Source: an uncultured virus (IMG/VR IMGVR_UViG_3300038393_001252) (lineage: Duplodnaviria; Heunggongvirae; Uroviricota; Caudoviricetes). From it: a DNA stretch of 64,000 bases. Position numbers and translations under genes: made by a program. Below are positions 10,711 through 64,000 of the stretch, piece after piece (the first letter of the stretch is position 1; the number at the start of each line of letters is the position of its first letter). The DNA lies in the IMG/VR virus record IMGVR_UViG_3300038393_001252; one strand, 5' to 3'. The notes below the pieces were generated by a model, which saw nothing but the letters and a program-made list of their open reading frames with translations, had not been told where the DNA came from and did not search any database.

Positions 10711-10713
10711 GGC

Positions 10714-11523: not shown

Positions 11524-11530
11524 AGTGTGG

Positions 11531-11830: not shown

Positions 11831-11834
11831 GATG

Positions 11835-15588: not shown

Positions 15589-17388
15589 TCAGAAGGGAAT
15601 TTCATCGTCCTGCAAATTCACGCTCTGCGTAGGTGTATCCCACGGTATCTTGTCATCATCGAATTCCGGCAACGCATCCCGGCTACCGACTGTGACCACA
15701 GGTGGTTCCACCGCTTCACGCTTCCCGAATGCGGTGCCAGTGAAGTCCACGTCCATAATCTCCGGGTACCCAGCCTTATTAACCCACACCCGTAGGTGCG
15801 TAGGTTGCGCCACCTTATCTGTCTGCGTCAGTGCCATTGCCACGCTGTCTGGTACCGGCAAGTTTGTGCGTTTGCGCCACCAATCCCTCGCCTTCTTCCC
15901 AGCAAAGTTCACGTGCTCAAGGCATACGTATTCGTCAAACTTCCGCAACCCGCAAAAGTAGCTCACCCTCAACATCGGCGGTTTCCCCGCCCGGTGGTAT
16001 TGCTGGTACGTTATCTGGTGAACCTCGAACACTTCCACTACGGGAAGTTCTCCGCGCACCAGAGTCTCCGTACTAGACGCCTGCTTAATTTTAACTGCGA
16101 ACGTGAATTCCGCGCCACAGAGAAAGCAGAAACGAGCGCTGGCATGGTTATACGTGTCACAGTGATCGCAGCATTTGACCGGGGCAGTTCCGCTACCCTT
16201 ACCCTTCTTGTTAGGTATAACCGGGTCGTTGATCGGTCCAAGGCGTCGGGTATTCCCGGCATAGTCCAGGACCAAGCAATTCTGTTTTTGGCTCGCTGCA
16301 ATAGCTGCCAATCTGCCAACCTGCGTGCTAAGATCATATCCGTCCGCAAACACCGGACGCGTGCCTCTGCCAAGCATCTGGACCCAAAGGACCGACGACG
16401 CAGTTGGGCGAAGGACGAGGATAAGGTCAATTTCCGGGTCATCATAACCTGTGGTCAGTATGTTGTTGTTCGCAATGGCCGTGATGGTGCCGCTTTTATG
16501 GCTCGCAAGAATTGCGTCTCGTTCCTGGCCCGACATTTTGCTATGAACCGCGCCCGCAGGGACACCCAGCTCATTGAGTATCTCGGCAATATGGACAGCA
16601 TGTTCAACTCCAGATGCAAAGATAAGCCATTTGTGTCTGCCTTGCTCCTGTGCGATTGTAATCGCTTCTTGCAGTGCTTTAACAGTAATGTCGTGCTTGT
16701 CAACCGCATTCTGCAACTCCTGCTGTATGAACTCACCACCCCGCATATGGACGCCACTGACGTCCAGCTCAACCTTTGGTTTACGAGGTACGAGCGGTAA
16801 CAGATATCCCTGTGCGAACAGCCAGTTAAAGGCTTCGATTGTCGTCATGTCGAAGCAGACGTCCGTGAATAGCGGGTCATCCTCTTCCACCAGCTTCCCG
16901 CTACCCAGCCTCCAGTCCGTAGCCGTAAACCCAATCACCTTCAGCGCCGGGTTCACCTTCTTTAAGTCCGCGATGTACTTCCTGTACATCGTCTTCTCGT
17001 TTGGGCTTACCAGATGCGCTTCGTCGATCAGCATCAAGTCCACGTGCCCAAACGCATGCGCCTTTTTGGCCATGCTGGCAATACCGCCGAATACGATATT
17101 GTCGTGGATGTCCTTGCGCTTTAGACCAGCGCTGTAGATACCGACGGGGGCGGTTGGCCACGCATCCAACAGCTTCTTATAGTCCTGCTCAATTAGCTCC
17201 TTGACGTGCGTTACTATCTGGACCCGCTGGTACGGGAAATGGTATAGCACGCTCTTTAGGAACTCGGCTATAACGTGGCTCTTCCCCGTCCCCGTCGGCA
17301 TCACCACCAACGGGTTCCCCGTCTTGCCAGCCGTAAAGTAGTCCCAGATGGACTGGGCCGCTAGAACCTGATAGTCACGTGCGGGCAT
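15589..17388 (-). CDS. superfamily 2 DEAH helicase with zinc ribbon (RadD/YejH-like)
   Basis: MPTGTGKS, IDEAH, FTAT, QMLGRGTR, CDHC...CFLC. Confidence 0.92.
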   Translation of the reverse strand: MPARDYQVLAAQSIWDYFTAGKTGNPLVVMPTGTGKSHVIAEFLKSVLYHFPYQRVQIVTHVKELIEQDYKKLLDAWPTAPVGIYSAGLKRKDIHDNIVFGGIASMAKKAHAFGHVDLMLIDEAHLVSPNEKTMYRKYIADLKKVNPALKVIGFTATDWRLGSGKLVEEDDPLFTDVCFDMTTIEAFNWLFAQGYLLPLVPRKPKVELDVSGVHMRGGEFIQQELQNAVDKHDITVKALQEAITIAQEQGRHKWLIFASGVEHAVHIAEILNELGVPAGAVHSKMSGQERDAILASHKSGTITAIANNNILTTGYDDPEIDLILVLRPTASSVLWVQMLGRGTRPVFADGYDLSTQVGRLAAIAASQKQNCLVLDYAGNTRRLGPINDPVIPNKKGKGSGTAPVKCCDHCDTYNHASARFCFLCGAEFTFAVKIKQASSTETLVRGELPVVEVFEVHQITYQQYHRAGKPPMLRVSYFCGLRKFDEYVCLEHVNFAGKKARDWWRKRTNLPVPDSVAMALTQTDKVAQPTHLRVWVNKAGYPEIMDVDFTGTAFGKREAVEPPVVTVGSRDALPEFDDDKIPWDTPTQSVNLQDDEIPF

Positions 17389-21937: not shown

Positions 21938-22277
21938 TTCTTGTTACTCCTGCCATCATGTGGTTAATCTTAATCGCCTTCTGCTTGCGCCTGTAGCGCC
22001 TTGCCAACTCCGCTCTTGTCAGCGCGCCACGCGCCGCGTCCACACCTTTGCCCCAGCGGAACGCGGGCTTGAGCGGGAACCCGCGCGAGTCCGGGTGCCA
22101 CTCGGCAATATGAACCAACTTGCGATCGTGCAGCGCATGGACCCAATCACGGATTGTGCGGTTGTGCAGACCAGTGAGATCTGCCATTTCGAAGTAATCT
22201 AGTGCCTCCTCCTGTAAGCCATCCACAAGCATGGCGAACAGGTGCGGGAGCACCCGGACCTGTTTCGGCATAGTCAT
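21909..22277 (-). CDS. putative HTH DNA-binding protein
   Basis: EMADLTGLHNRTIRDWVHAL. Confidence 0.65.
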   Translation of the reverse strand: MTMPKQVRVLPHLFAMLVDGLQEEALDYFEMADLTGLHNRTIRDWVHALHDRKLVHIAEWHPDSRGFPLKPAFRWGKGVDAARGALTRAELARRYRRKQKAIKINHMMAGVTRNATDEIPAG

Positions 22278-22840
22278 TTAACTGGCGGAGGCGGGACAAG
22301 GCTGGGAGCTTGCGGGGCTGCCGCAGCTTCCAGACGCGCTTTGAGTTCCTTGCCGGGTTCCAGCTTGCACTGCGGGGAGCCCGGCTTGGAGTCAATGAAC
22401 ATATTGACCACAGCAGTTTGTTCCGCCGTCAGCTTACGGTATTCCGCAACGCTGAGCTCGGGTTTGAACTTGATCAGCTTGTCCACGCTCAGCCCCAGCA
22501 CCGTGAACAGCATGGCGTCCGGGTCCATCTTGGCAATCTGGTCGTCCGGGTAGCCAGCGGCGCGTAGGATGTGCAAACCGTCACGCACCTTCGTCGTCTG
22601 CAGCACAGACATCTGCACTTGGTCAACAGTGCGCGTGATAACGTGCGTGGCCTTGAACACGTAACCGTCTGGAAGCGCGTACTCGTTCGCGCCCTCCTTC
22701 GGGTTCACAATCAGGGCGCCGAACAGCTTCTTGCGCAGTTCGGATTCCTGGAACTTGAGCACGTCAAGTTGCTTCTTGAGCTCACACCAGCGGTGGATAT
22801 CCGCGGTGGAGACCGTGGGCGGGGGAGGGATAAGAGTCAT
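22274..22840 (-). CDS. hypothetical phage protein
   Basis: 188-aa ORF, GGAG RBS, upstream TATAAT at 22879. Confidence 0.75.
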   Translation of the reverse strand: MTLIPPPPTVSTADIHRWCELKKQLDVLKFQESELRKKLFGALIVNPKEGANEYALPDGYVFKATHVITRTVDQVQMSVLQTTKVRDGLHILRAAGYPDDQIAKMDPDAMLFTVLGLSVDKLIKFKPELSVAEYRKLTAEQTAVVNMFIDSKPGSPQCKLEPGKELKARLEAAAAPQAPSLVPPPPVK

Positions 22841-33625: not shown

Positions 33626-34455
33626 GGTGTTACTCCGGTTGGGTTACTACTGGTGCAACTTGCACCGCACAGCACACCAGCGCGTAGCTGATGTGCTGTA
33701 AGGTTGAGCTGCGATGCGCGGTGCTTACACAGCAAGCGCAAAGGTTGAGTTACCCAAAATATAGTAGAGCTAACCTAGTGTGTGAATTGTTAAAGTAGCG
33801 CTAGCGCTTTGATGTGGTAAGCGGTTGAGCACCGCACGGGTGCTGTACAGCACCAGCACCACACCGTTGAGCTACCCTGTGTGCGCGGGGTGGGTACCCC
33901 TCGCTTCAGGTGGGTTGGTGCAATAACCAACCATGACTACATTGTGCGCTTGCTACGCCGGTTGTGGGCTACGTGGTAGTTAACATGGTAACTGGTGGCG
34001 TTAACACGCGTTAAACACAGCAGTAGCTACTGTCGTGCTGCGTTTTAAGCTCATGCATAAGCACCAAGCGCAGCAGTAGCACCCACGCTGTAGTAAGCTC
34101 AGCAGTGTTTGTAGTACCCTCGTTTGCAAATGTGCTATGCAAAGCATAGTGCAAGTAATACCCAAGTGCGCAAAACGTCAGCGCAACAGCAAAAAACTTT
34201 TGAGGGTTGGTACTAGGGTAGCGGGTACCCTTAAAAAAGCGCTTAAAACGCGTTTGTACGACTGGTTACGCAAAAACCATAGCACGCTGCAAACCGAAGC
34301 ACTAAGTTAGCTGGTACGCAAATTGCGTCATAATACTAAAACACCCTGCAAGCGGTGTGCGCTGTTGCAGGGTGTGCGTACTACTTTGAGGTGAATGGTA
34401 CGGTGCTTGCTACGTGGTGCGCAAGCAACTCATGAATTGTGCTGCTGTGTTAGCA

Positions 34456-35049
34456 CTAGGTGTTAGCTGCTGCTACCTCAACAGTTGCAGCTTCGATTAG
34501 CTCAACAAATATGGTTATTGTCGGGCTGTACTGCACCGCAGCAAAGCGCTTACCCAGCAGGCGCGGGTGGGCGTGGGCGTACTGCTGTAGAGCTAGGGTG
34601 TGGTTAGCGGCGGTGCTGAGCTGTGGGCTGTACGCAAAGCGGCTACCGTCCAGTTGCTTCCCCCGCACTTGGCGCTTAACCACACCAGCACTAAGGTCTC
34701 TGTCATTGTGCCCCAACCGTATAGCTACCCAGCGCTTGGGCCCACCCTGCGCGTCTACTGTAGCGGTGGTGGTTGCGTACACCAACAGCCCAGGTTCCGT
34801 GCTGTTGTGCTGCTGCGCCACAGCTTCGTACTGCTGTGCTTCCTGTGCTAGGTGGTTGGGGTACTGCTGGGGTGGTAGCGGTTGGGCTATAGGTGGAGGT
34901 GGTGGAGGGGGTACGGATGCGTTGTCCGTGTGCCACGGTGCACGCACAGTGTAAACGTGCTGCTGTGGTACGGGTGGAACAGTTGGGCTTACGGCGGGCT
35001 GTGTTGGGCTAGGTGGCTCAACAATAATGGGTTGTGGTAGCTGTGCCAT
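34456..35049 (-). CDS. hypothetical protein with Pro/Gln-rich N-terminus
   Basis: Long ORF in an otherwise non-coding region; weak RBS. Confidence 0.45.
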   Translation of the reverse strand: MAQLPQPIIVEPPSPTQPAVSPTVPPVPQQHVYTVRAPWHTDNASVPPPPPPPIAQPLPPQQYPNHLAQEAQQYEAVAQQHNSTEPGLLVYATTTATVDAQGGPKRWVAIRLGHNDRDLSAGVVKRQVRGKQLDGSRFAYSPQLSTAANHTLALQQYAHAHPRLLGKRFAAVQYSPTITIFVELIEAATVEVAAANT

Positions 35050-35099
35050 ATGCGGGTGTGCGTTATAGATGGGTAAGGGTGTTATTGTGCAGTTGGAGT

Positions 35100-36060
35100 A
35101 CAAGGAAGAGTTGGATATTTACGCATTGTTGCTAGTAGTGTAGTGGTAACAACTGTTAGGGGTAGACTACTAGTAGTGTAACTATCGGGTGGGGGGTGCA
35201 CTAATACACCACTACTAACATATACGCGCTATACGTACACACATAACAACGCATAACGTGTACATAACGCGCGCCGCCATTTATACGTGCTACACTCCTA
35301 GTTATAACATATAAAAATATATATAATTAACATAACACACAAAACACTATAGTACCGTTTGCACACTAATCGTTCTAAACAGGCATTTGGAACTACATTT
35401 AATTAACTGCGTAATACCTTGTAGCCCAATTCGCTTTTGCTCCCACGGGTAACACGCATAACGTTACCACCCCTAGTAACACGCAGTAGTCTAAGTTCCA
35501 ATTAGACACACGCTGTACCGTACAGCACATCTGTACTTCCTGCTGCGCTAGCACTACCCTGCTGTTGCTGCTAGCACGTCCATTCCATACAGTCCAGCTG
35601 CTACTGCACAGCTACCCTATTGCTGTGCTGTCTACTGCCCAGCTGGAACTGCAGAGCATGTAATCTGTTACCTCACCGGCTACCATCTTTACTGCTGGGC
35701 TGACCGGGCGGAGGTACCATCAACACATGATTCTCAATTTAAATCGATATTCGTTATGGAATGCTTACCTTTATTTCTTCGTAATAGCCTTTTCTGCCCA
35801 TAACACGCCTGTACGCATAACGCATACGCGCGTAAGGGCAGGATCCACATCAGAGCCTTCCAGCACTTATACTGCCCACCACTATGTTCACATTCTTCTT
35901 CACAACCCTCCTCGTTGCCCTGCTCAGCCTACTATTCACTGTGGTTACCAACAATAAAGTTCCACCACACTACTCAGGCTTTGCACTCATGCTCTTCACC
36001 TTCTTCCTCGCCTTTGCCCTGGGCGGCGCCTACGTCAGGTATCTGCTTTAAGAATCTGGC
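35100..36060. other. AT-rich divergent intergenic region (candidate origin or packaging/terminus site)
   Basis: Strand switch, AT tract 35302-35336, CATAAC repeats. Confidence 0.5.
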
Positions 36061-36067
36061 CTCGGGC

Positions 36068-36096
36068 TTGCAAATCGGGTTAACCTGCGTTAAGCT
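36068..36096 (+). promoter_or_regulatory. sigma70-type promoter
   Basis: TTGCAA-17 nt-TAAGCT followed by AGGAGG and ATG 36121. Confidence 0.6.
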
Positions 36097-36120
36097 GTGT
36101 GTTTTGCAGGAGGTAAACCC

Positions 36121-36492
36121 ATGGCAACGGCACGAGCGGAAATCCTATATGAAGTCTGGCGCAGGGCTATTTGGCTGACGCCTGCGAACCACAAAAAGAC
36201 TGCGCCGCCGCATTGGCACGAGTTACAGGAAGAAGTGAAAGCGGCTTGGGACGCGGTGGCGTACACGGCGGGTCACGTTCCACCTAAGCACATTCGCAGC
36301 GGTGGGTACTGCGTTAGCTGCGGGGCGCACGAGAGCGAGATGCACCTTGAGCGGTGCCCTTACTCTCCACAGCCACAGCACCTCCAAGGTGAATTCAGCA
36401 CCGTGCACATCTGCACCTGCGGTGGTTCCAGCAGCATTGGGCACGCAAAGAGCTGTGCTACCCGGACGCCAATCCGCTATGAGGACCTCTAA
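36121..36492 (+). CDS. Cys/His-rich hypothetical protein
   Basis: AGGAGG RBS; CVSC, CTC...H..SC. Confidence 0.7.
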   Translation: MATARAEILYEVWRRAIWLTPANHKKTAPPHWHELQEEVKAAWDAVAYTAGHVPPKHIRSGGYCVSCGAHESEMHLERCPYSPQPQHLQGEFSTVHICTCGGSSSIGHAKSCATRTPIRYEDL

Positions 36493-36494
36493 TC

Positions 36495-36698
36495 ATGCTG
36501 TACGACCCATTCGTGCTCACGGTGCTCATTTTTGTCACCATCGTGGTCGGAACCATGAACCTGTGCTGGTACGTGCTCTGCGGCGTTCGCTTCACAGTCA
36601 AAACTGTCCCCTTTGCTTTCATTCCCGTCCTTAACATTCCCATTCTCATAGGCCTCATGTGGCTTGAAAGGGCTGAAAATGCACCGGATCGCGCATGA
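36495..36698 (+). CDS. small membrane protein
   Basis: Two hydrophobic segments, GAGG RBS. Confidence 0.6.
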   Translation: MLYDPFVLTVLIFVTIVVGTMNLCWYVLCGVRFTVKTVPFAFIPVLNIPILIGLMWLERAENAPDRA

Positions 36699-36814
36699 TT
36701 GGAGGCTGGCAATGGAGATTTCGGGCAAAAAGCCGGAATTAGCCAGCAAAATCTTCAACGTGCCACTGTTTAAGGTGGCGAGTGAGGGCATGAAAAGAGC
36801 TTGGAGTAAGCGAA

Positions 36815-37189
36815 ATGCAGACAATTTGTCCAAAATGCCACAGGAAACCGGAGCTGTGCGTGTGTGAAAAGCCTACTGTGGTCATACACGACGTGCAGGA
36901 ACAGGCACCGGAGCCGGCAAAGCATGTACCGCACACTCTGGCCTCGATGTTTAAGAAGGCTTTGCAGGACAACAAGGACTTCTACATTGAAGGCTCAAAA
37001 TGGTTCGCTCGTTTCGACAAAATCATCGTTTACAAGCACCCTGAGCACGGCGTAATCATTGAATATTCGCATGAAGGGAAGGTTTTGCACGTTGACCCTG
37101 TGCCTAACTGCCCCTTTGAGGGTGAAATTACGATCACGGATATCAAGGGGTCGATCCTGCTTCCTATCGGAGATCCGAGTTCAACATAG
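36815..37189 (+). CDS. hypothetical protein
   Basis: GGAG RBS, N-terminal CPKC. Confidence 0.65.
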   Translation: MQTICPKCHRKPELCVCEKPTVVIHDVQEQAPEPAKHVPHTLASMFKKALQDNKDFYIEGSKWFARFDKIIVYKHPEHGVIIEYSHEGKVLHVDPVPNCPFEGEITITDIKGSILLPIGDPSST

Positions 37190-37237
37190 ACGCAATATCC
37201 GTTTACAATTTCGCCCACTGCTCATCCGTGCAACCCG

Positions 37238-37246
37238 TGTTATAGT
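37238..37246 (+). promoter_or_regulatory. extended -10 promoter (TG-T-TATAGT)
   Basis: Directly upstream of the structured segment. Confidence 0.55.
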
Positions 37247-37251
37247 GCATG

Positions 37252-38270
37252 CACCACGCAGCAAACGGGTGTTGGTAGGTCCGCAAGGGCTTACCGACTG
37301 GGCTCTCAGCCTCCAAGCCAGGAGCCTCTGTCCCGCCCGTTTGTGGCACAAAGACGAACCTGCCAGTCGGGAGATGCCGCGTGGGACTGTGCCGTATATT
37401 GGGCCTCAGCGGGGCGCAATTCAAAGAAGTACCGCTGCGCAGGAATGTGTTTCTGCCGCTATCCGGGTGTAGATCGCAGACGGACTTGTCCGTTTAAGAC
37501 TGTGAGGTTGGTCCCAATACCAGTCTGAATGCAATCAGACCATGCAGTCGGGTAGCGCCAAAAACACATTCCAGGAGTGTCTTTTAGAGGTTGGGTACTG
37601 TGCGAGTGTGAGTCGGAGGATGACCGGCCCCCGTTTGGTCCATGTGAAGGTAGTTTCTACTGAATAGGACGCGTTGGGAGCCCTCTGTTTCCCGAGAGGA
37701 TCCACGCACACCCTGCCCAACCCCTAAAACACACTCCATTGTGGAGGAGACCCCCGGTGCTTGGGTCGAATCAAAAAGAATGTGCGCCGCCAGCTGGGAT
37801 TTTGCAACCCAGCATCCTTTGCGTATCGCTGTGAAGCGACGGCAAAGGCCCGCCGGTTAGTGGAGGACGACTGCCATGTTCGCCATGGGGTTCCTGCTGC
37901 AACACCGCTAGCCGGCGGACCTTTGCTGTCACGCAAACAAGAGGTCGATGATCTGTCAGTCCTCGGTTGGGGTACCGCTCCAACGTAAAAAGCTCAGGTC
38001 CCCTTGTGCCAGTCCGCAAGGGAGAGTTGATTCAGGTAGTCAGCTCCCCTTTGCGGGTCGGTGGTTTATAGGTTCGCGCCCTTTCCGGTTGGGCGAATTC
38101 CGGTTTGGTTGGGCTACCGACCCGCATCCTTGCACCTCCACGCAGTTGCCACTGTTAGGTGTGATCCAACGTCTGTGCGCTAGTCCCCTCTGCAACCTAC
38201 GCCTTTCTCCGTCAGCGTAAGTTGGCATGGATTTGGATCTTAATCCCCGCCTGTGTGCGGGGATTTTTTT
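37252..38270 (+). ncRNA. candidate large (~1 kb) structured non-coding RNA
   Basis: No credible ORF; nested long helices with G-U pairs on the + strand (37574-597/37714-737, 37838-863/37905-930, 38014-056, 37442-452/37562-572); GNRA loops; own promoter and terminator. Confidence 0.75.
38242..38270 (+). terminator. intrinsic terminator
   Basis: AATCCCCGC-ctgtgt-GCGGGGATT-TTTTT. Confidence 0.85.
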
Positions 38271-38339
38271 GACTTTACATCCCCGCACACTTGCTATCCT
38301 GTTGGCTGTACCTGTACACTGCGCGGACCCCACAAACAA

Positions 38340-38702
38340 ATGACCATGGCTGATAAGAGCTTTACGACAGAGTGGACCGGGGGACCGGTCAACTACTACA
38401 TTGTTGAAGTTAAGCACCCGAACCAATTGGGTGAGCCTTACCAGGCTGAGTGCAGCGATATCATTGAGGCGCTCGGCATGGACTTCAATGAGGGCGAGGC
38501 GTTCAAGGCGCTGTGGCGAACGGCTGCGGCACGGACGTTGGGTAAGGCCAAGCGTGGTCACGAGGCGCTGTACAACTACGAGAAGGTGGCGCATTACGGC
38601 AAGCGTAAGGTCATTCTCGAAAAAGCACGCCTCGAATCCCAATCCCTTCCGCAAGCTCTGCGGGACCTCAATCTTCCATCAAGCAAAGGAATAGTAGCAT
38701 GA
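38340..38702 (+). CDS. DUF3310-like protein
   Basis: GGPVNYY...ECSDIIEALGMDFNEGEAFKALWR...KVAHY. Confidence 0.7.
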   Translation: MTMADKSFTTEWTGGPVNYYIVEVKHPNQLGEPYQAECSDIIEALGMDFNEGEAFKALWRTAAARTLGKAKRGHEALYNYEKVAHYGKRKVILEKARLESQSLPQALRDLNLPSSKGIVA

Positions 38703-38914
38703 GAATCTTCAAAGTCAAACGCGGTGACCGCCTCGTTACCACCGGCCCCTTCATTGCCCCGCTGCCCGAGGGTACGAAGGTGTACGAGCTGGACCCTGTG
38801 GAGAACAACATCGAGATGTCCGTGCCCCACGTCCGCGTAACGCTGGACGGGGCGCGTGACCCGGAAGCAATGGCGTTCTTCATCCCCGAAGAAGACGTCG
38901 AAGAACAGGTGTAA
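38699..38914 (+). CDS. hypothetical protein
   Basis: ATGA overlap, 71 aa. Confidence 0.65.
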   Translation: MRIFKVKRGDRLVTTGPFIAPLPEGTKVYELDPVENNIEMSVPHVRVTLDGARDPEAMAFFIPEEDVEEQV

Positions 38915-38921
38915 CCACATC

Positions 38922-39440
38922 ATGGGCATCAACATACGTGCCAAGGGCCAGGTGGGTGAGCGGGAAATCGCTGACGACCTTAACGCCATCATCACTGTGG
39001 TCAGGGCCCAGCTAGGCCTACCCGCGCTCACAAAGCCGCAGGTCCAGCGCAACCAGCAACAGACGGCTGTAGGCGGATGTGACTTGGTTGGTACGTATGG
39101 TTTTGCTATTGAAGTGAAGAGGCAGGAAACCCTCTCGATCAACACTTGGTGGAAGCAGTGCGTTAAGAGCGCTCATGAGGTGCACGGGATTCCTGTGCTC
39201 CTGTTCCGTCAAAACGCTAAGCCCGGGCAGCGCACGAAGTGGCGCTGCGTTACGGTTGCTGAGTTCCAGGGCGCGACGGCGCAAAGCGGAATACCATTTC
39301 GAGCGGAGATGGACTATGACGACTTCAAGGAATGGTTCCGGTGGCACGTCAAAGACAACCTTCGTGCAGAGCATCCTGAACTGGATACGCGGAATCCCGC
39401 CGTCCCCCTCCCGCCAGTCCAATTTGCCATGGGTGGCTAA
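38922..39440 (+). CDS. Holliday junction resolvase-like PD-(D/E)XK nuclease
   Basis: RAKGQVGEREIA, GGCDL, AIEVKRQE. Confidence 0.8.
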   Translation: MGINIRAKGQVGEREIADDLNAIITVVRAQLGLPALTKPQVQRNQQQTAVGGCDLVGTYGFAIEVKRQETLSINTWWKQCVKSAHEVHGIPVLLFRQNAKPGQRTKWRCVTVAEFQGATAQSGIPFRAEMDYDDFKEWFRWHVKDNLRAEHPELDTRNPAVPLPPVQFAMGG

Positions 39441-39441
39441 A

Positions 39442-39684
39442 ATGGAAGACGCAGAGCGCAGGCAGAAGCAGGCTGTACTGGACAAGATCCTGTACGAAGT
39501 CAACGTCATTACGCTCAAAGCCAAAGCGAATATCGAAATGTACGTGCTGGCTTGTAAGCAAGGCGACAAGGAAGAAATGGAACGGCTGCGTGAATCCAGC
39601 CTCGAGCTCCAGGGTGTGTTGCTTGATAAACTAGCCCTACAGGTCCAGCTCTTCCGTGAGCTCGGGCTCAACATTAGCATCTAA
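39442..39684 (+). CDS. hypothetical protein
   Basis: Start MEDAE, 1 nt after the previous stop. Confidence 0.6.
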   Translation: MEDAERRQKQAVLDKILYEVNVITLKAKANIEMYVLACKQGDKEEMERLRESSLELQGVLLDKLALQVQLFRELGLNISI

Positions 39685-39829
39685 CCCACACCCGGTTTCG
39701 CCCGGTCAGCGCGAATTATCCTAGGCGCCTGCCTTTTCTCAAACCCGCAAAGTCGTATGCTTGGGCCAAAGCAATAACAAGGCCTGACCTCCCTCTGTTA
39801 CGGCCTTTTCACTAAGTAGGAGCAGTGAA

Positions 39830-39988
39830 ATGACCGAAGCAGAAGAATACGCCAAGTGGTGCATGCGTAAGAGCATGGACATGAACGGGGATGTGCGCAA
39901 GCTGCCCCGCGATGAGAGGCAATATGACGCGAAACCTTCTGAAGTGCCTTGCACAGAACCCAAGGAGGCATCAGATGTTCAAGAGTGA
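39830..39988 (+). CDS. small hypothetical protein (52 aa, not in ORF track)
   Basis: AGGAG RBS, MTEAEEYAKW... Confidence 0.5.
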   Translation: MTEAEEYAKWCMRKSMDMNGDVRKLPRDERQYDAKPSEVPCTEPKEASDVQE

Positions 39989-40178
39989 ATTCTTTTCTCA
40001 AGCAGCACAGGGGACTCCTGCTGTTGGCGGGACCTGGCTGTATTGGGCCACTAGCTTGAACTGGATTGGCTTCCTGACGGGCTGCTATGTGGTTATCCAG
40101 GCTGCGTACCTGCTGCGGAAATGGTGGCGGGAAGAGAAAGACTGGATGCGCGGTAGGCGCAAAGGACCTAAGCAATGA
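39975..40178 (+). CDS. holin
   Basis: AGGAGG RBS, hydrophobic core, highly basic C-terminus, overlaps the endolysin start. Confidence 0.75.
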   Translation: MFKSEFFSQAAQGTPAVGGTWLYWATSLNWIGFLTGCYVVIQAAYLLRKWWREEKDWMRGRRKGPKQ

Positions 40179-40735
40179 ACTTTGAAGATGTGATTGACGA
40201 TGTCATTGCCAGGGAGAAGGGTTTTGTCGATCATCCGAATGACCGCGGCGGTCCAACCAATTGGGGCATCACACAAGCCACCGCCGCCAAATGGGGTTAC
40301 ACGGGTGCAATGCAGAACCTACCTGTGTCCGTCGCGCGTGAAATCTACAGGGACCGCTACATCGCGGCGCCTAAGTTTGATAAGGTGGCAGAGATCGATG
40401 AAGGCGTCGGACGAAGGCTTGTGGACGCAGGGGTGCTTATGGGCCCGGCGCGCGTTTCCCCGATGTTCCAAGAGTGGCTCAATGCGTTTAACATGCAAGG
40501 AAGCCGCTATGCAGATGTGTTTGTGGACGGTCGGATTGGCTCTGTTACTCTTAGCGCTTTTCGTGCTTATCGTAGGTGGAGAGGTGCTGAAGGTGCTGAG
40601 GTCATGCGGTACGCGATTGCGTGTAGCCAGGGTGGACACTTCTTGCAACTTGCTAAGTCGCAAGTGACGCAGGAGGATTTCATTTACGGCTGGATGCTAC
40701 AGCGTGTGGTCACGACCTTGAAAGAGGGCGCGTGA
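40175..40735 (+). CDS. endolysin, GH108 with peptidoglycan-binding domain
   Basis: REKGFVDHPNDRGGPTNWGIT, VDGRIG, FIYGW. Confidence 0.92.
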   Translation: MNFEDVIDDVIAREKGFVDHPNDRGGPTNWGITQATAAKWGYTGAMQNLPVSVAREIYRDRYIAAPKFDKVAEIDEGVGRRLVDAGVLMGPARVSPMFQEWLNAFNMQGSRYADVFVDGRIGSVTLSAFRAYRRWRGAEGAEVMRYAIACSQGGHFLQLAKSQVTQEDFIYGWMLQRVVTTLKEGA

Positions 40736-40765
40736 AATATTAACCCACTGTGAGGAGTAGATGAT

Positions 40766-41041
40766 ATGTTTGGTCTTTCGAAAATCTTTGTCCTTTTGGA
40801 CCTTTTGCGTAAGGGTGAGTCCCTTACGAACGCGGCAACCTGGAAGAACGTCTCGACGCTCACCATGGTGCTCAGCGGCATGTTCGTTGCCATTGTGCAG
40901 TACCTTGCCGCGCAGGGCGTCCAGCTCCCCTTCGGCGAAGCTGAGGCTACTACGGTGGCTAGCGCCATTGCTATCGTTGTCGGCGTGTTCCTCAACTACG
41001 CCACTTCCGATAAGGTTGGAATCTTGCCGCCCAAAGATTGA
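40766..41041 (+). CDS. lysis-cassette membrane protein
   Basis: Two hydrophobic helices, GAGGAG RBS, follows the endolysin. Confidence 0.7.
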   Translation: MFGLSKIFVLLDLLRKGESLTNAATWKNVSTLTMVLSGMFVAIVQYLAAQGVQLPFGEAEATTVASAIAIVVGVFLNYATSDKVGILPPKD

Positions 41042-48845: not shown

Positions 48846-50558
48846 ATGGCCCAGCTAAATATCACGAACTATCCCATCTCCCCGCTCAAGTACATTACGG
48901 GGCTTGACGCAAGCGGGAACGTGAAGCATGCGCTGGCGCCTAAGGTCAGTGTCAAGGACTACGGCGCAAAGGGTGACGGGACGACAGACGACACCTCTGC
49001 AATCAAGGCTGCGTTTGACGCGTGCATGGCGGCAGGTGTTGCCGTGCAGTTCGAAGAAGGCACCTACCTCGTCACCGGTCCCATTACCACGCTGGCTGAC
49101 TCCACGAACTCCTTGCACATCGTTTGCAAGGGGCAGGTCAACATCAACGTCTCTGGCAGCGCCACAGCGTTCAATTACCTGCTGTACGTTTCGTCCACAG
49201 TCGCCAACAACGCCTCTATCACCGGCGGCCAACTGCGCATTGACCTCAACAACAAGTGCGGTTCCGGCATTTGGATCCAGCACGCCGTGACCGGACCTAC
49301 AGGTGTGGTTAACATCCAAACGCCTGTGACGGTGTTGAATGCGAAGCAGAACAACAGTTCGTTTACGCAGGAGAACTACGGGATTGGCGTAATTGGTGAC
49401 TACGAAAAAGTCATCATGCAGCAGCCCACAGTGGTCGGCGTCAATCGCACGAACACAACGGGCGGTGCATGCAAGGGCATTGTCGTTACGCAATGTGGCG
49501 GTGAAGTAGTTCTTAACCAACCTCACGTCGAAAACATCCTTACGCCTGGTACGGCTGACGCGGACGGCATTGCTACGTTCGGAAAGTTGAATGGCGGAAG
49601 TTCTTCGTTGCGCACAGCTGGCAGGGTGACGATTAACCAGCCCGTGTTCATTGACTGCCAGGGCCGTAGCTTCAAGAGCCAGTGCAGTGATACCACCATT
49701 ATCCGCCCGCGTGTGTACCGCAAGAGCGTGGTGGCGATTGCGCAAGCTGTGGAGTTTGACTTCCAGCTTGGCGGCAACCATTTGCTGATTGAACCTGATT
49801 ATGAGTACAGGCTGAATGGTGCAACGAGCCCCATTGGCTCTTCGCACTCCTGTGTCGCGTTCCAGAACATGATTACGGACACGCCCATGCACTCCCGTTC
49901 CGTTGGGGGTTACATGCGGACGGAAGTTCAGATTCCGAACTACTGCGTTCTCGGTCGAGCCACTAGCGCAGCATTCTGCGAAGTTGTGGTCGAGGGCTTG
50001 CGCATCATTCCTCTGGGCTCCTTTACAAGCGCCACTTTCAGCAGATCGTTGCTTGAGTTCATTGCTTCTGACCTGATTGCCGCTACCGGCAAGACCATGA
50101 TCCGGGTTGACAACTGCTCTGGCCCGCTCCAGTGCACAGCAATTGGATACAACAGTTATAGCTCCGGCACTACGAACACCAAGCTGGACATCGAAGTCAC
50201 AAACATGCGCAACACGATGGGCCCAGCCAGTGCAGCGCAGCTCTTCAACGCTCTCAGTGGAAGCTTCATTAACGACGTTGATACTTTCCTGTTCCGTTCC
50301 AACACTGGCTATCGAGATCTTAACCAAATTGGTACGTTCAACTTTAACAAGTTGCGCCCTGGTTGCATCTTCACAGTTGACCCCGCCACCGTCACCGCCA
50401 CTGGTGCCCCGCCCTGGAGCACGGCGAGCTACGCCACGGTTGAGTGTTTGACCGCTTATTTCGGCACAACGGACAGGACCGTGCGCGTGACTCAAAGCAA
50501 CGGCTCTGGTGTCTGGTTTACCCAAAACGGTGGCACCAATTGGGGCACGACCGCTTAA
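48846..50558 (+). CDS. tailspike/depolymerase-like beta-helix protein (pectate-lyase-3 type N-terminus)
   Basis: VSVKDYGAKGDGTTDDTSAIKAAFDA, GTYLV. Confidence 0.8.
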   Translation: MAQLNITNYPISPLKYITGLDASGNVKHALAPKVSVKDYGAKGDGTTDDTSAIKAAFDACMAAGVAVQFEEGTYLVTGPITTLADSTNSLHIVCKGQVNINVSGSATAFNYLLYVSSTVANNASITGGQLRIDLNNKCGSGIWIQHAVTGPTGVVNIQTPVTVLNAKQNNSSFTQENYGIGVIGDYEKVIMQQPTVVGVNRTNTTGGACKGIVVTQCGGEVVLNQPHVENILTPGTADADGIATFGKLNGGSSSLRTAGRVTINQPVFIDCQGRSFKSQCSDTTIIRPRVYRKSVVAIAQAVEFDFQLGGNHLLIEPDYEYRLNGATSPIGSSHSCVAFQNMITDTPMHSRSVGGYMRTEVQIPNYCVLGRATSAAFCEVVVEGLRIIPLGSFTSATFSRSLLEFIASDLIAATGKTMIRVDNCSGPLQCTAIGYNSYSSGTTNTKLDIEVTNMRNTMGPASAAQLFNALSGSFINDVDTFLFRSNTGYRDLNQIGTFNFNKLRPGCIFTVDPATVTATGAPPWSTASYATVECLTAYFGTTDRTVRVTQSNGSGVWFTQNGGTNWGTTA

Positions 50559-61827: not shown

Positions 61828-64000
61828 CCGACCAACAGTTCATTGACTGGCTAGCAGACCCGCTAGCTATTCGCTGCGTTCTTGTTGAAGCCGTCGTTAA
61901 TTCCGGTGGCATTGAGCAAACCCGCTACCTCTCTAACCTGGGCTATGTGTGCTCCAATCCGCAGAACCCGACGGTGCTGCTGGACTACGAAGCGCTCATT
62001 GTTGGCGGTTGTGAAATTGAAGAGACGTTGAACCTGGATGGTGGCTTCAGCTTCACCATCGGGGACGTGGAGATTAACAACACTGGCGGAGAGCGGGACA
62101 GCTGGCTGAGCGACATTTGGCGCAACAGGAGCTTGCTGATGTACGTGGGGGACGTGCGGTGGCCCCGCACGGACTTCAGGCTGGTGTTCCGCGGCATCAT
62201 TGCAGACATTGGCAGCAGAAGCCGGAACGTGCTGAACCTTACGATGCGGGATAACCTGCAGAGGTTGAACACGGCGATTACGGAAGCGAAGCTGGGCGGA
62301 GATGGGAACCTGGCGGATAAGCTGCTGCCGTTGTGCTTTGGAGAGGTGCACAATATTGAGCCGGTACTGGTTGACAAGGCGCTGCTCAAGTATCAAGTCC
62401 ACCAAGGCACGATCGAATCCATTATTGAGGTCCGTGACAACGGAATCCCCGTCACAGCACAGTCAACCCTTACGGACGGGAAGTTTACGCTGGCCAAGGC
62501 GCCCTATGGACAGCTGACGTGCAGTGTGCAGGGGGATGCGACTGGTGGGTACACGAACCAAGTCGCGCCTCTTATCCAACGTATCATTACCAGTTACGGG
62601 CCATACGACACCCGCTTTGCGCCCACGGAAGTTGACACCACCAGCTTCAACACCTTCACATTCGTTAACCCACAGGCGGTTGGCGTTTACATTACGGACC
62701 GTGCCAACATCCTTGAAGTGTGCAACGCGCTAGCGTCGAGCATCGGTGCGCAGTTAACCTGCACACCTACGGGGTTGGCAAGGCTGATTAAGATTGAGCT
62801 TCCGGTGAGCGGTAAGTCACCTACGTTGGTGAACGGAAGTAACATTAAAGAAAAGACGTTGCAGTTGGTGGAACGAGTCCCTGTAAAGGGTTCGGTGAAG
62901 CTGGGGTACTGCAAGAACTGGACGGTGCAAGACGGCATGCAGAGCGGTGTGGTCACAGACCATAAGGCTATGTATGCGGAGGAGTGGTTGACCACGACGC
63001 TGCAGAACAGTGCGGTGTTGAACGCGTATAAGATTACGGGGGAACCGGAACAGGAAGACACGCTGTTGCTGACGAAGGCGCATGCGGATGCGGAAACGAG
63101 CAGGCGGTTAACGCTGTGGAAGACCCCGCGGGCGGTTTACCAATATGAAGGCTTCCCTGAGCTCATGTTGGAGGAGCTTGGCGGTGCGCAGTCCATTTCG
63201 AATGGACGGTTTGGCTTTGGGCTGCCCACGGACGCACAGATCATTGGCGTGAAGCGGAACTGGCTGACCTGTACGCCCACGTTCCAGATCCTGACCACAG
63301 TAGCGATCAATGTGGCGCAGGCACCAAACGCACCTCCCGCCCCGCTCCCGCCTCCTGCACCTCAGGTCCCTGTTCCCCCGCCTCCGTCCCCAATCCCGGC
63401 ACCTCCACCACCTGCGCCTATTCCCGCACCTCCCCCACCTGTCACCGCAGACGGGTGGCCTACGAAGGTGCTGGCGGCGTACTATGTGGGCTGGGACCAG
63501 ACGGTTAACATCCGGAATATTACGCAGGACTTTAACGTCCTGTACCTGTTCAACGCTCACTTTGACGCTGGCAACGGTGCTGCCAACTGGCCCTGGCCTG
63601 GGTTCCCCGCGAACAGTGATATCCAGGCTTGCAGGCAGCGTGGCCAAAAGGTCATCCTCTCCGTTGGCGGTTCCGGGTTTGCATTCCCGTTCCAGAACCG
63701 GACGCAGAGCCAGAACTTCGTTAACTCTATCGTAACCATCTGCAGCACCTTTGGCGGTCTTGACGGCGTAGACTTCAACAACTACGAAGGCCAGACCACG
63801 ATGGTGATCAGTGAGCTGGTCTGGATCTGCGGTGAGCTGCGGCGGTTGTTGGGTGCTGGGTTCGGGTTCACCTCCCCGCCTGGCGGTAACAACACGGGTG
63901 GCGGTAACGTGAACGGGATTAGCGGCAGCACAGGATATGACCTGAACCTGGCAGCGGCGCTGAATGATGCTGGGTTGCTAACGTATGTGGCGCCGCAGTA
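61824..64000 (+). CDS. 3'-truncated tail-tip hub protein fused through a Pro-rich linker to a GH18 (chitinase-like) domain; not in ORF track
   Basis: ATGA overlap with the tape measure stop; no stop to the window end; LPLCFGEVHNIEP, Pro linker ~63320-63440, KVILSVGG, LDGVDFNNYE. Confidence 0.85.
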   Translation, partial: MTDQQFIDWLADPLAIRCVLVEAVVNSGGIEQTRYLSNLGYVCSNPQNPTVLLDYEALIVGGCEIEETLNLDGGFSFTIGDVEINNTGGERDSWLSDIWRNRSLLMYVGDVRWPRTDFRLVFRGIIADIGSRSRNVLNLTMRDNLQRLNTAITEAKLGGDGNLADKLLPLCFGEVHNIEPVLVDKALLKYQVHQGTIESIIEVRDNGIPVTAQSTLTDGKFTLAKAPYGQLTCSVQGDATGGYTNQVAPLIQRIITSYGPYDTRFAPTEVDTTSFNTFTFVNPQAVGVYITDRANILEVCNALASSIGAQLTCTPTGLARLIKIELPVSGKSPTLVNGSNIKEKTLQLVERVPVKGSVKLGYCKNWTVQDGMQSGVVTDHKAMYAEEWLTTTLQNSAVLNAYKITGEPEQEDTLLLTKAHADAETSRRLTLWKTPRAVYQYEGFPELMLEELGGAQSISNGRFGFGLPTDAQIIGVKRNWLTCTPTFQILTTVAINVAQAPNAPPAPLPPPAPQVPVPPPPSPIPAPPPPAPIPAPPPPVTADGWPTKVLAAYYVGWDQTVNIRNITQDFNVLYLFNAHFDAGNGAANWPWPGFPANSDIQACRQRGQKVILSVGGSGFAFPFQNRTQSQNFVNSIVTICSTFGGLDGVDFNNYEGQTTMVISELVWICGELRRLLGAGFGFTSPPGGNNTGGGNVNGISGSTGYDLNLAAALNDAGLLTYVAPQ

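What the first reader, a model, noticed from the sequence alone, without database searches (positions are those of the whole stretch)
37252..38270. Candidate ~1-kb highly structured non-coding RNA with its own promoter and terminator
Seen: a >1 kb stretch with no credible ORF in an otherwise densely packed genome, bounded by TG-T-TATAGT (37238-46) and an intrinsic terminator (38242-70). It is packed with nested helices: 37262-71/37334-43 closing a junction with a 12-bp GCAA-capped stem (37271-98); 37442-52/37562-72 (11 bp, perfect); 37574-97/37714-37 (22/24) enclosing several hairpins; 37838-63/37905-30 (25/26, three G-U); TCGCT-GTGA-AGCGA; 38014-56 (18/19, three G-U). Non-Watson-Crick positions are mostly G-U on the + strand, as expected for selected RNA structure rather than DNA repeats. 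Known: phages carry large ncRNAs of unknown function (GOLLD, ROOL). Inference: a divergent member of such a class or a new class.
Basis: partly seen in the sequence, partly recalled or inferred. Interest (0 to 1): 0.92.

Follow-up and report, generated by a model that had tools for sequence, protein, structure and literature searches.

The report
New 1-kb folded phage RNA gene
An uncultivated soil phage carries a gene-free stretch of about 1 kb that very probably makes a large, densely folded RNA of no known family, but it occurs in only one phage lineage and its job is unknown.

Summary
Window 37190-38339 (1150 nt) has no credible ORF. It starts with promoter-like sites and ends in a strong intrinsic terminator (38242-38265 plus a T-run). 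The listed helices are all recovered by folding.

- **Folding:** the + strand folds at z = -7.3 against dinucleotide shuffles. Five coding controls of equal length give +1.3 to -2.9. Five sub-domains each give z of -4.8 to -6.9.
- **Database matches:** no Rfam family matches, and no Pfam or PHROG family matches any of the 16 six-frame fragments. No homologue turned up in phage genomes, plasmids, IMG/VR, one JGI metagenome scan or one GTDB scan.
- **Natural variants:** the only relative is a near-identical phage contig. In it, two hairpins of the 5' three-way junction have different sequences that still form hairpins, and GCAA becomes GAAA. Indels there break the two longest spurious ORFs. A third variant lacks exactly one 132-nt helical domain.
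- **Expression:** two root metatranscriptome libraries from one study hold contigs only inside this region.

I read it as a real gene for a new, modular, roughly 1.0-kb non-coding RNA. It sits where a lambda-type late leader would sit. It is not GOLLD or ROOL. There is no statistical covariation, no strand-specific expression data and no known function. Interest is moderate to high.

The parts
37181..37209 (+). Sigma-70-like promoter candidate P1 (TCAACA-17-TACAAT). It overlaps the stop codon of the upstream gene. The expected start is near 37216.
   Evidence: 9 of 12 matches. The RNA-library contig of run X8 reaches back to 37239. That fits a start at or upstream of that point.
37238..37246 (+). 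The expected start is near 37253.
   Evidence: The motif is present but not enriched: 3 found against 2.04 expected.
37256..37348 (+). Domain D1, a three-way junction. Closing helix 37261-71/37334-44. Hairpin A 37274-95 with a GNRA loop. Hairpin B 37296-37332. Both hairpins are hypervariable between variants.
   Evidence: z = -4.8 and MFE frequency 0.47. The G001 variant folds to the same junction.
37349..37441 (+). Linker L1. It is not structured on its own. Its 3' part may pair with 37740-37788 to close off D2 and D3.
   Evidence: z = +0.8; cofold gain z = -2.55, 8 of 300 shuffles as good.
37442..37572 (+). Domain D2. An 11-bp perfect closing helix, then a 10-bp helix, then a three-hairpin junction that includes a CUUG loop. 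The domain is optional: one natural variant lacks it.
   Evidence: z = -6.8; the X8 contig joins 37439 to 37572.
37574..37737 (+). Domain D3. A long rod of 7+6+9+6 bp with 1x1 mismatches and an irregular tip. Its closing helix is a paralogue of D2's.
   Evidence: z = -5.5; repeat CCAAAAACACATTCCA / CCTAAAACACACTCCA.
37738..37817 (+). Linker L2, A-rich. It holds hairpin 37793-37813, whose 9-nt loop carries the palindrome UUGCAA.
   Evidence: z = +0.2; loop list. A palindrome in a loop is within chance expectation.
37818..37937 (+). Domain D4. A 7-bp base, then a 25-pair rod (37838-63/37905-30, one C-A mismatch, 3 G-U), then an apical hairpin. Alternative pairings in the 37827-37841 stretch give small hairpins with loop GUGA or GAAG.
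   Evidence: z = -5.9 for 37836-37932.
37941..37984 (+). Two small hairpins. The G-run at 37969-72 carries a 1-nt indel between variants.
   Evidence: The same insertion is seen in RNA run X7.
38016..38054 (+). Domain D5, a 16-pair hairpin with 3 G-U.
   Evidence: z = -6.9 on the + strand against -5.2 on the - strand.
38055..38123 (+). Domain D6. A 14-bp helix with 4 G-U in the whole-molecule fold, enclosing a small hairpin. Weakly supported.
   Evidence: The local fold of 38058-38140 is no better than shuffles (z = -0.75).
38163..38239 (+). Domain D7, the 3' branched hairpin.
   Evidence: z = -3.2, 0 of 200 shuffles as good.
38242..38272 (+). Intrinsic terminator: AAUCCCCGC / GCGGGGAUU plus U7. 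This is the 3' end of the RNA.
   Evidence: sRNA-terminator look-alike matches are the only Rfam signals.
38253..38290 (.). A second, 12-nt perfect inverted repeat (GTGTGCGGGGAT / ATCCCCGCACAC). It shares the terminator's right arm and spans TTGACT at 38269-74. It could be an alternative hairpin in read-through RNA or an operator at a downstream promoter.
   Evidence: z = -7.5 for 38236-38300.

Best explanation
Window roughly 37216/37253 to 38272 (+) is a separate gene for a non-coding RNA of about 1.0 kb, in an uncultivated soil siphophage that has 7-deazaguanine genes.

**Shown:**
- There is no coding signal.
- The stretch contains a chain of independently and very stably folding domains (D1-D5 and D7), joined by A-rich unstructured linkers.
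- It ends in a strong + strand terminator.
- Natural variants keep the hairpins while the sequence changes, or lose one whole domain.
- The stretch is present in RNA libraries.

**Inferred:**
- Host RNA polymerase transcribes it from a sigma-70-type promoter just behind the upstream small gene.
- Most transcripts stop at the terminator and accumulate as a stable RNA.
- The product acts as RNA in trans. Its long, rod-like helices, interrupted by mismatches and G-U pairs, would serve as a multi-site platform that binds or sequesters a host or phage protein. The fast-changing 5' hairpins would be the exposed, least constrained part, or the part that sets specificity.
- Transcripts that pass the terminator continue into the late genes (lysis, terminase, structural). 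The locus may therefore also gate late expression, as the lambda PR'-tR' leader does.

I put the odds that it is a real structured RNA gene at about 0.8. I put the odds that the trans-acting protein-platform mechanism is right at about 0.3-0.35.
For: - **No coding signal.** The gap is 1150 nt. None of 16 six-frame fragments matches PHROGs or Pfam. Codon-phase GC signal is weak.
- **Folding.** Whole-region z = -7.3, against +1.3 to -2.9 for 5 of 5 coding controls. Domain z values run -4.8 to -6.9, with 0 of 200 shuffles as good and high MFE frequencies of 0.12-0.47.
- **Strand.** The terminator T-run is on the + strand only. The + MFE is 38 kcal/mol lower than the - MFE. There are 42 G-U pairs on + against 21 on -. 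All neighbouring genes are on +.
- **Variant G001.** It is identical over the RNA except for hairpins A and B of D1 and two homopolymer indels. Both versions fold to the same three-way junction. The changes are GCAA to GAAA, one C-G to A-U exchange, one U-G to C-G change, one whole pair deleted, and a swapped distal stem in hairpin B. A net +2 nt in D1 and a +1 G at 37969-72 shift the frames of the 137-aa and 90-aa ORFs.
- **Variant X8.** A contig joins 37439 to 37572. That removes exactly the domain closed by the 11-bp helix.
- **Expression.** Two RNA-seq libraries from one root metatranscriptome study hold high-identity contigs at 37239-37641 and 37760-38016. Nothing else of the 6-kb stretch laid is covered, apart from 37-42-nt chance pieces.
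- **Context.** The genes that follow on the same strand are holin, endolysin, terS, terL and portal. The scan found no consensus promoter between 38270 and 38340.
Against: - **No diverged homologue, so no statistical covariation.** The hairpin-preserving changes come from a single second sequence.
- **Conservation is uninformative.** The two genomes are a roughly 99% identical mosaic in which 39 of 106 250-nt bins have no difference.
- **Strand evidence is not clean.** The - strand also folds well (z = -6.2), and D3 folds equally well on both strands.
- **No single global fold is supported.** Only one closing helix has modest support (z = -2.55). The other long-range helices score z of -1.9, -0.5 and +0.17. 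The linkers and D6 are no better than shuffles.
- **The RNA-library evidence is thin.** The contigs have depth about 2, carry no strand information and come from one study. The runs were found with a query that was half RNA region, so DNA carry-over is not excluded.
- **Promoters are predictions only.** The X8 contig starts 14 nt upstream of the transcription start that motif implies.
- **Related phages manage without it.** The related contigs examined, including one complete 64.5-kb relative, have no match.
- **The proposed partner is pure inference.**
Confidence: 0.6

Rival explanations
1. The element is a cis-acting leader and terminator gate for the late operon, like lambda PR'-6S-tR'. Under this reading the promoter at 37181-37246 is the late promoter. 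The terminator stops most transcripts until a phage factor makes the polymerase terminator-resistant; the 124-aa zinc-ribbon protein encoded just upstream is one candidate. The 1-kb structured stretch would then be leader RNA with a role in pausing, processing or stability, and not a free-standing product.
For: - The order is small gene, promoter, terminated transcript, then holin, endolysin, terS, terL and portal, all on the + strand.
- Only 70 nt separate the terminator from the next gene, and no consensus promoter was found there.
- The upstream protein starts with a CxxC...CxC motif.
- A 12-nt perfect inverted repeat shares the terminator's right arm.
Against: - Known leaders of this kind are about 200 nt, not 1 kb (recalled, not tested).
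- Seven stably folded domains are far more than a gate needs.
- The upstream protein matches no family, and its model is of low confidence.
- Related phages with the same late genes have no such leader.
- The alternative hairpin lies downstream of the U-run, so it cannot prevent termination in the classical way.
- This reading is compatible with the best explanation and does not exclude it.
Confidence: 0.2
2. The element is an array of independent hairpin modules and not one RNA machine. The modules could be templates for a reverse transcriptase, as in the phage UG27 ncRNA arrays, or double-stranded decoys or processing sites for RNase III or a host RNA sensor.
For: - D2 (131 nt) and D3 (164 nt) are tandem and have paralogous closing helices.
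- One variant lacks exactly one unit.
- The long-range helices are mostly not significant.
- Rods of 22-26 bp are long enough for double-strand-specific proteins.
- UG27 arrays are phage-borne. They have units of about 135, 149 and 167 nt, units that are diverse in sequence, and gain or loss of units between close relatives (bioRxiv 10.64898/2026.09.22.753630; I read passages).
Against: - No reverse transcriptase was found. None of the ORF translations scanned matches PF00078 (57, 56, 12, 16).
- The domains do not share one common architecture: D1 is a three-way junction, D2 a rod plus junction, D4 a rod.
- The UG27 covariance model is not in Rfam 15 and could not be run.
- Roughly 6 kb of a contig of about 70 kb lies outside the window (contig length).
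Confidence: 0.12
3. The element is not a functional RNA. It would be either a DNA-level feature (a palindrome cluster for replication, recombination or packaging) or a decaying remnant whose structure has no function.
For: - Both strands fold far better than shuffles.
- There is no homologue and no covariation.
- Distribution is limited to one lineage.
- The element is dispensable in relatives.
Against: - G-U pairs favour one strand, 42 against 21.
- A + strand terminator sits exactly at the end.
- Hairpins are preserved through replacement of their sequence, and the GNRA loop is kept.
- No iterons, tandem repeats or AT-rich core are present.
- Contigs are present in RNA libraries.
- The likelier replication or regulatory region is the AT-rich switch in GC skew at about 35.1-35.5 kb.
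Confidence: 0.08

Closest known systems
GOLLD and ROOL RNAs (large 'ornate' RNAs of phages and prophages)
   Same: All are large (about 0.6-0.8 kb against about 1.0 kb here), non-coding, multi-domain and phage-borne. All form a stand-alone unit and have unknown function. Background is from PMC12286853 (abstract seen in the listings) and from my own knowledge.
   Different: - No match to any Rfam model, even at E = 10.
- No tRNA genes nearby; there are 0 in the window.
- The helices here are unusually long rods (22-26 bp) joined by unstructured linkers, and no global fold is supported.
- It is known from one lineage only.
Lambda late leader (PR' - 6S RNA - tR')
   Same: The position is the same: behind a small gene, in front of the lysis and terminase genes, on the same strand, with a promoter followed by a strong terminator.
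   Different: It is about five times longer and richly structured. No Q-like protein was recognised. Antitermination is not shown. The lambda details are recalled, not tested.
UG27 reverse-transcriptase ncRNA arrays of phages (bioRxiv 10.64898/2026.09.22.753630)
   Same: Both have tandem long-hairpin units of about 130-165 nt, little sequence similarity between units, and loss or gain of single units between close relatives.
   Different: No reverse transcriptase or accessory genes are in the window. Only D2 and D3 look like sister units. The covariance model was not available.
phi29 pRNA
   Same: Both are phage-encoded structured RNAs. One loop here is self-complementary (UUGCAA) and could in principle make loop-loop contacts.
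   Different: No Rfam match. This element is about six times longer. The palindromic loop is within chance. No link to the packaging motor is shown.

Membership tests
GOLLD / ROOL / OLE / HEARO / raiA (large structured RNAs in Rfam) | Match to the family's covariance model | tested here: not met
   Scanning all 4227 Rfam 15 families gave 0 matches at gathering score in the whole window. At E <= 10 on 37100-38400 there were 10 matches. Of these, 8 lie on the terminator stretch 38186-38296, 1 at 38294-38333 and 1 at 37324-37392 on the - strand. None is to these families and all are far below their gathering scores. That these families are in Rfam is recalled.
GOLLD / ROOL | Frequent neighbourhood of tRNA genes in phages and prophages (recalled) | tested here: not met
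   ARAGORN found 0 tRNA genes in the 64-kb window.
Group I / group II introns, RNase P, tmRNA, ribozymes | Covariance-model match, or interruption of a host gene | tested here: not met
   No Rfam match. Both flanking genes are complete. The downstream protein aligns over its full length with homologues.
UG27-type RT-templating ncRNA array | Reverse transcriptase and two accessory genes in the locus | tested here: not met
   No PF00078 match among the ORF translations scanned. Roughly 6 kb of the phage, probably tail genes, lies outside the window and was not seen.
UG27-type RT-templating ncRNA array | Tandem units of about 135-167 nt with one shared secondary structure | tested here: inconclusive
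   D2 (131 nt) and D3 (164 nt) are tandem and share closing-helix sequence. D1, D4, D5 and D7 have other shapes.
UG27-type RT-templating ncRNA array | Match to the published covariance models | not testable with these tools
   The models are described in the preprint. They are not in Rfam 15 and are not held here.
Lambda-type late leader with Q antitermination | Promoter plus terminator directly upstream of the late genes on the same strand | tested here: met
Lambda-type late leader with Q antitermination | Q-family antiterminator encoded just upstream | tested here: inconclusive
   The 124-aa upstream protein has no Pfam or PHROG match. Its only database relative is itself. Its model has pLDDT 65 and was not searched.
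Protein-coding gene or pseudogene | Open frame, codon periodicity, family match, frame kept among variants | tested here: not met
   The indels of +2, +1 and -11 nt between variants shift reading frames; the 132-nt deletion of D2 is a multiple of 3.

The most novel reading that the evidence does not exclude
This would be a new class of roughly 1-kb modular phage RNA. It would be built from rod-like domains that are gained and lost as units, with a 5' three-way junction whose two hairpins are rewritten between otherwise near-identical phages. That pattern would fit an RNA whose peripheral hairpins set or evade a specificity, such as a decoy or sponge for a host RNA-binding defence or nuclease. 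It would be expressed from the slot just ahead of the late genes.
Probability: 0.4. Interest if true: 0.75.

Novelty: new variant of a known kind. Interest (0 to 1): 0.62.

Why it matters
Large structured RNAs with no known function are rare, and each new class has brought surprises. GOLLD, ROOL and OLE turned out to form RNA-only multimers (PMC12286853, abstract seen). This would add one from a soil phage with modified DNA, and its build is unusual: long rods, optional domains and a hypervariable junction.

It is short enough to synthesise, transcribe and probe, or to image, without culturing the phage. Its position ahead of the late genes gives a concrete regulatory hypothesis to test.

Its weakness is that it is known from one lineage only. 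Its generality and its function are both open.

Tried and rejected
**Homologue searches that led nowhere**
- blastn against 50,697 phage genomes: no match at E 1e-5 or at E 5.
- Megablast of 16 kb against the phage genomes: none.
- Plasmids: two terminator-like 31-nt matches only.
- IMG/VR DNA patterns: nothing or only the near-identical contig.
- One JGI metagenome scan: one chance 20-mer.
- One GTDB genome scan: six chance 19-mers.
- Loci around relatives of TerL and of the downstream protein: no blastn or nhmmer similarity in 28 loci.
- Five whole related virus records: 0 of 5 match.

**Flanking proteins**
- The upstream protein is an orphan.
- The downstream protein belongs to a wide phage family of unknown function, with 205 hits.
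- That family has no Pfam match at E <= 0.01, no PDB sequence match and no fold match at E <= 0.001.

**Leads examined and dropped**
- ORF-poor stretches upstream of that gene in relatives L028 and L035 looked promising (z -2.5 and -3.9). They are small protein genes whose differences are mostly scattered single-base substitutions. Rejected.
- L004's ORF-poor stretch holds a tRNA-Pro.
- Antisense targets of the variable hairpins in the two genomes: only chance 10-11-mers. Antisense 13-mers of the whole RNA: 5 scattered hits.
- A palindromic loop and loop-loop complementarity are within chance.
- Conservation of the RNA relative to its flanks was dropped as an argument, because the genome pair is a mosaic with many identical bins.
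- Sliding 300-nt z-scores cut the domains and were less informative than domain-wise folds.

**Earlier notes and papers**
- This scan's earlier notes hold nothing for this genome or this sequence.
- Viral structured-RNA candidates in PMC10690425 are 29-151 nt long (passages read), so they are not comparable.

**RNA-library coverage**
- Parts of the stretch without cover in the RNA runs are not counted as evidence of absence.
Full report
**What is in the sequence.** The window is most of an uncultivated siphophage.
- Its large terminase is 66% identical to those of Pseudomonas Iggy-like and enterobacterial Seuratvirus (Queuovirinae) phages of about 60 kb.
- It carries FolE, QueD, QueC and a radical-SAM QueE-like gene, which is the 7-deazaguanine set.
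- Genes from 3.2 to 33.6 kb run leftwards. From 36.1 kb on they run rightwards.
- Gene 36815..37189 (+) encodes 124 aa with an N-terminal CxxC...CxC motif. Gene 38340..38702 (+) follows 1150 nt later. No credible ORF lies between them.
- The genes that follow on the same strand are a 71-aa ORF, a PDDEXK nuclease, a holin, a GH108 endolysin, terS, terL, portal, capsid and tail genes.

**Checking the observation.**
The one exception is the GCAA-capped stem, which is 9 bp and not 12.
- The terminator is strong: 38242-38265, 9 bp with 6 G-C pairs, then a T-run.
The consensus scan prefers TCAACA-17-TACAAT at 37181-37209. Both are predictions.
- The 1023-nt stretch folds at -457.4 kcal/mol on the + strand. 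That is z = -7.3 against 60 dinucleotide shuffles. The - strand gives -419.4 and z = -6.2.
- Five coding segments of the same length, folded on their sense strand, give z between +1.3 and -2.9.
- GC content equals that of the window, 57.0 against 56.8%.
- The structure is concentrated in separate domains. With 200 shuffles each, and none as good: D1 37256-37348 z -4.8, D2 37440-37574 z -6.8, D3 37572-37740 z -5.5, D4 37836-37932 z -5.9, D5 38010-38060 z -6.9, D7 38160-38241 z -3.2.
- The linkers 37349-37441 and 37738-37835, and the stretch 38058-38140, are no better than shuffles.
- Of the long-range helices in the whole-molecule fold, only the one closing D2 and D3 has modest support: cofold gain z = -2.55, 8 of 300 shuffles as good. 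The others score z of -1.9, -0.5 and +0.17.
- What is supported is therefore a chain of stably folded domains on flexible linkers. A single global fold is not supported.

**Coding or not.**
- None of 16 stop-to-stop fragments from the six frames matches PHROGs or Pfam.
- Codon-phase GC differences are 0.01-0.15 inside the gap and 0.2-0.33 in the neighbouring genes.
- The indels seen between natural variants (see 'Natural variants' below) shift the frames of the two longest spurious ORFs.

**Which strand.**
- The terminator's T-run exists on the + strand only.
- The + fold has 42 G-U pairs, 27 of them inside helices. The - fold has 21, with 17 inside helices.
- D1, D2, D4 and D5 are more stable on the + strand. 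D3 is equal on both strands.
- All neighbouring genes are on the + strand.
- The strand call is good but rests on several moderate arguments.

**Known families.** cmscan against all 4227 Rfam 15 families gives nothing at gathering score in the whole window. At E <= 10 on 37100-38400 it gives ten weak matches.
- Eight lie on the terminator stretch 38186-38296 and resemble sRNA terminators.
- One lies at 38294-38333.
- One lies on the - strand at 37324-37392.

None is to GOLLD, ROOL, OLE, HEARO, introns, RNase P or tmRNA. There are no tRNA genes in the window.

**Search for relatives.**
- The only relative found is IMG/VR contig G001 (26.9 kb), 98% identical over the region.
- No other similarity was found in 50,697 phage genomes, in plasmids, or in IMG/VR by three DNA patterns.
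- One JGI metagenome scan gave one chance hit. One GTDB scan gave six chance hits.
- Loci around relatives of TerL (6 loci) and of the downstream protein (15 loci) show no similarity by blastn or nhmmer. That is 0 of 28 loci not belonging to G001.
- Five related virus records searched whole have no match. One of them is a complete 64.5-kb genome.
- Phage Iggy and Salmonella phage STP-SP5 have no comparable gap.
- The upstream protein is an orphan. The downstream protein belongs to a wide phage family (205 hits) that occurs without the RNA.
- The element is therefore an accessory insert of one narrow lineage. Proper covariation analysis was not possible.

**Natural variants.** Against G001, the 1150 nt are identical except for two things.
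- Two homopolymer indels: the G-run at 37969-72 and the terminator T-run.
- A patch of about 45 nt covering the two hairpins of D1.

Both versions of D1 fold into the same three-way junction.
- **Hairpin A:** the GNRA loop is kept (GCAA to GAAA). One pair changes on both sides (C-G to A-U), one on one side (U-G to C-G), one pair is deleted whole, and one G-U becomes a G-A mismatch.
- **Hairpin B:** it keeps its base, and its irregular tip is replaced by an unrelated 7-bp stem with a UCAA loop.

The net +2 nt in D1 and the +1 nt in the G-run shift the frames of the 137-aa ORF (37059..37472) and the 90-aa ORF (37948..38220).

I do not use the perfect identity of the rest as an argument. The two genomes are a mosaic that is about 99% identical, and 39 of 106 250-nt bins have no difference. 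The patch is nevertheless the most divergent short stretch of that comparison relative to its size.

Laying public runs on the region gave a third version.
- A 260-nt contig from RNA run X8 shares the hairpin A changes.
- Over 37239-37439 it has 15 other letters and 11 gaps.
- It joins 37439 directly to 37572. That removes exactly domain D2, which is closed by the 11-bp perfect helix.
- The junction lies in a 5-nt direct repeat, CAGGA, that begins both D2 and D3.
- The closing helices of D2 and D3 are paralogous: CCAAAAACACATTCCA against CCTAAAACACACTCCA. They include one A-U to G-C exchange between the two. D2 and D3 look like sister units.

**Expression.** A search of public runs found six soil or rhizosphere DNA runs and two RNA-seq runs, both from one root metatranscriptome study. 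On the 6 kb laid (35000-41000), the RNA runs gave the following.
- The X8 contig described above, covering 37239-37439 plus 37572-37641.
- A 258-nt contig in X7 at 37760-38016, with 1 other letter and 1 gap.
- Two 37-42-nt low-identity pieces belonging to long foreign contigs.
- No cover of the flanking genes.

This fits an RNA far more abundant than the phage's mRNAs. It is weak evidence, however. Depth is about 2, there is no strand information, only one study is involved, and the runs were selected with a query that was half RNA region. That favours the upstream promoter candidate, or read-through from upstream.

**How it most likely works.**

*Shown:*
- It is a non-coding unit that ends in a + strand terminator.
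- It is made of independently stable domains.
- Its hairpins are kept through sequence turnover.
- One of its domains is optional.
- It is present in RNA libraries.

*Inferred:*
- It is transcribed by host polymerase from 37181-37246 and mostly terminated at 38270. It accumulates as an RNA of about 1.0 kb.
- It acts in trans as a multi-site binding platform. The basis is the unusually long rods of 22-26 bp, regularly interrupted by 1x1 mismatches and G-U pairs, strung on A-rich linkers.
- The rapidly changing D1 hairpins are the exposed element, or the element that sets specificity.

Its place makes a second role likely. It sits behind a small zinc-ribbon gene and directly ahead of the lysis and terminase genes. 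Only 70 nt remain before the next gene, and no consensus promoter was found in that space. This mirrors the lambda PR'-6S-tR' arrangement (recalled), so the terminator may also gate late transcription. A 12-nt perfect inverted repeat (38253-64/38279-90) shares the terminator's right arm and spans a TTGACT. Its role is open.

**Rivals.**
- **(a) A purely cis-acting late leader.** It fits the position, but it does not explain 1 kb of ornate structure or the absence of the element from relatives.
- **(b) An array of independent hairpin modules.** These could be reverse-transcriptase templates like the phage UG27 arrays (bioRxiv 10.64898/2026.09.22.753630, passages read), or double-strand decoys or RNase III sites. 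It fits the tandem sister units, the loss of one unit and the lack of a global fold. However, no reverse transcriptase is found among the ORF translations scanned, and the domains differ in shape.
- **(c) A DNA-level or functionless element.** It fits the - strand z-score and the narrow distribution. The strand-biased G-U pairs, the terminator, the kept GNRA loop and the RNA contigs all argue against it.

**Novelty and verdict.**
- The element belongs to no described family that I could test.
- My paper searches found no description of such an RNA in Queuovirinae-like or soil phages. The viral candidates of PMC10690425 are 29-151 nt.
- In kind it resembles the large ornate phage RNAs. This scan's earlier notes list several other promoter-to-terminator large RNAs in other phages (unchecked leads), and none shares sequence with this one.
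- I rate it a new variant of a known kind.
- Odds are about 0.8 that it is a real structured RNA gene.
- The function is unknown.
- Interest is 0.62.

Noticed in passing
window 38253-38290: A 12-nt perfect inverted repeat (GTGTGCGGGGAT / ATCCCCGCACAC, 14 nt apart) shares the right arm of the terminator and spans TTGACT at 38269-74. It folds at z = -7.5. It could be an alternative hairpin in read-through RNA, or an operator over a weak downstream promoter.
   Followed up: partly
window 33626-36096: A second ORF-poor stretch of about 2.4 kb lies between the leftward and rightward gene blocks. GC skew flips from +0.43 to -0.37 near 35.1-35.3 kb, with an AT-rich dip (GC 0.39 at 35200-35499). Against contig G001, 34437-35477 does not align and 35750-36250 has 101 differences. 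It is probably the divergent promoter or replication-origin region and a recombination hotspot.
   Followed up: partly
window 37440-37740: Domains D2 and D3 are tandem and begin with the same CAGGA. Their closing helices are 88% alike on the 3' strand, with one A-U to G-C exchange. They look like an old tandem duplication. The natural variant lacking D2 is joined exactly at this repeat.
   Followed up: partly
window 8963-12542 (-): There is a cluster of GTP cyclohydrolase I, 6-pyruvoyl-tetrahydropterin synthase (QueD-like), QueC and a radical-SAM (QueE-like) gene. This is the 7-deazaguanine pathway, so the phage DNA is probably modified, as in Queuovirinae.
   Followed up: no
window 38340-38702 (+): The protein just downstream belongs to a wide phage family of unknown function. 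It has 205 database hits and a core of AECSDIIEALGMDFNEGEAFKALWR. The domain also occurs at the C-terminus of longer phage proteins, including a PHROG annotated as 3'-phosphatase/5'-polynucleotide kinase. One database variant carries a 13-aa internal duplication. It has no Pfam match at E <= 0.01, no PDB sequence match and no fold match at E <= 0.001.
   Followed up: partly
window 160-3123, 48846-50558, 61824-63998 (+): Structural-module proteins carry glycoside hydrolase family 5 (cellulase), pectate-lyase-like and GH18 domains. These are probably polysaccharide-degrading tail fibres or spikes.
   Followed up: no
window 37799-37807: The 9-nt loop AUUUUGCAA of hairpin 37793-37813 contains the self-complementary UUGCAA. 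It is also complementary over 5 nt to the D2 loop AUGCAA (37529-34). A palindrome of this size in the loops is within chance expectation.
   Followed up: partly
L004 519-595: The complete related phage, a 64.5-kb IMG/VR contig that lacks the RNA, carries a tRNA-Pro (UGG) about 2.4 kb upstream of its copy of the downstream gene.
   Followed up: no
window 16801-17100, 22201-22500, 1501-1800 (+): Three 300-nt bins inside coding regions gave folding z-scores of -4.1 to -4.5. Only 20 shuffles were used and only the + strand was folded. These may be noise or local mRNA structure.
   Followed up: no
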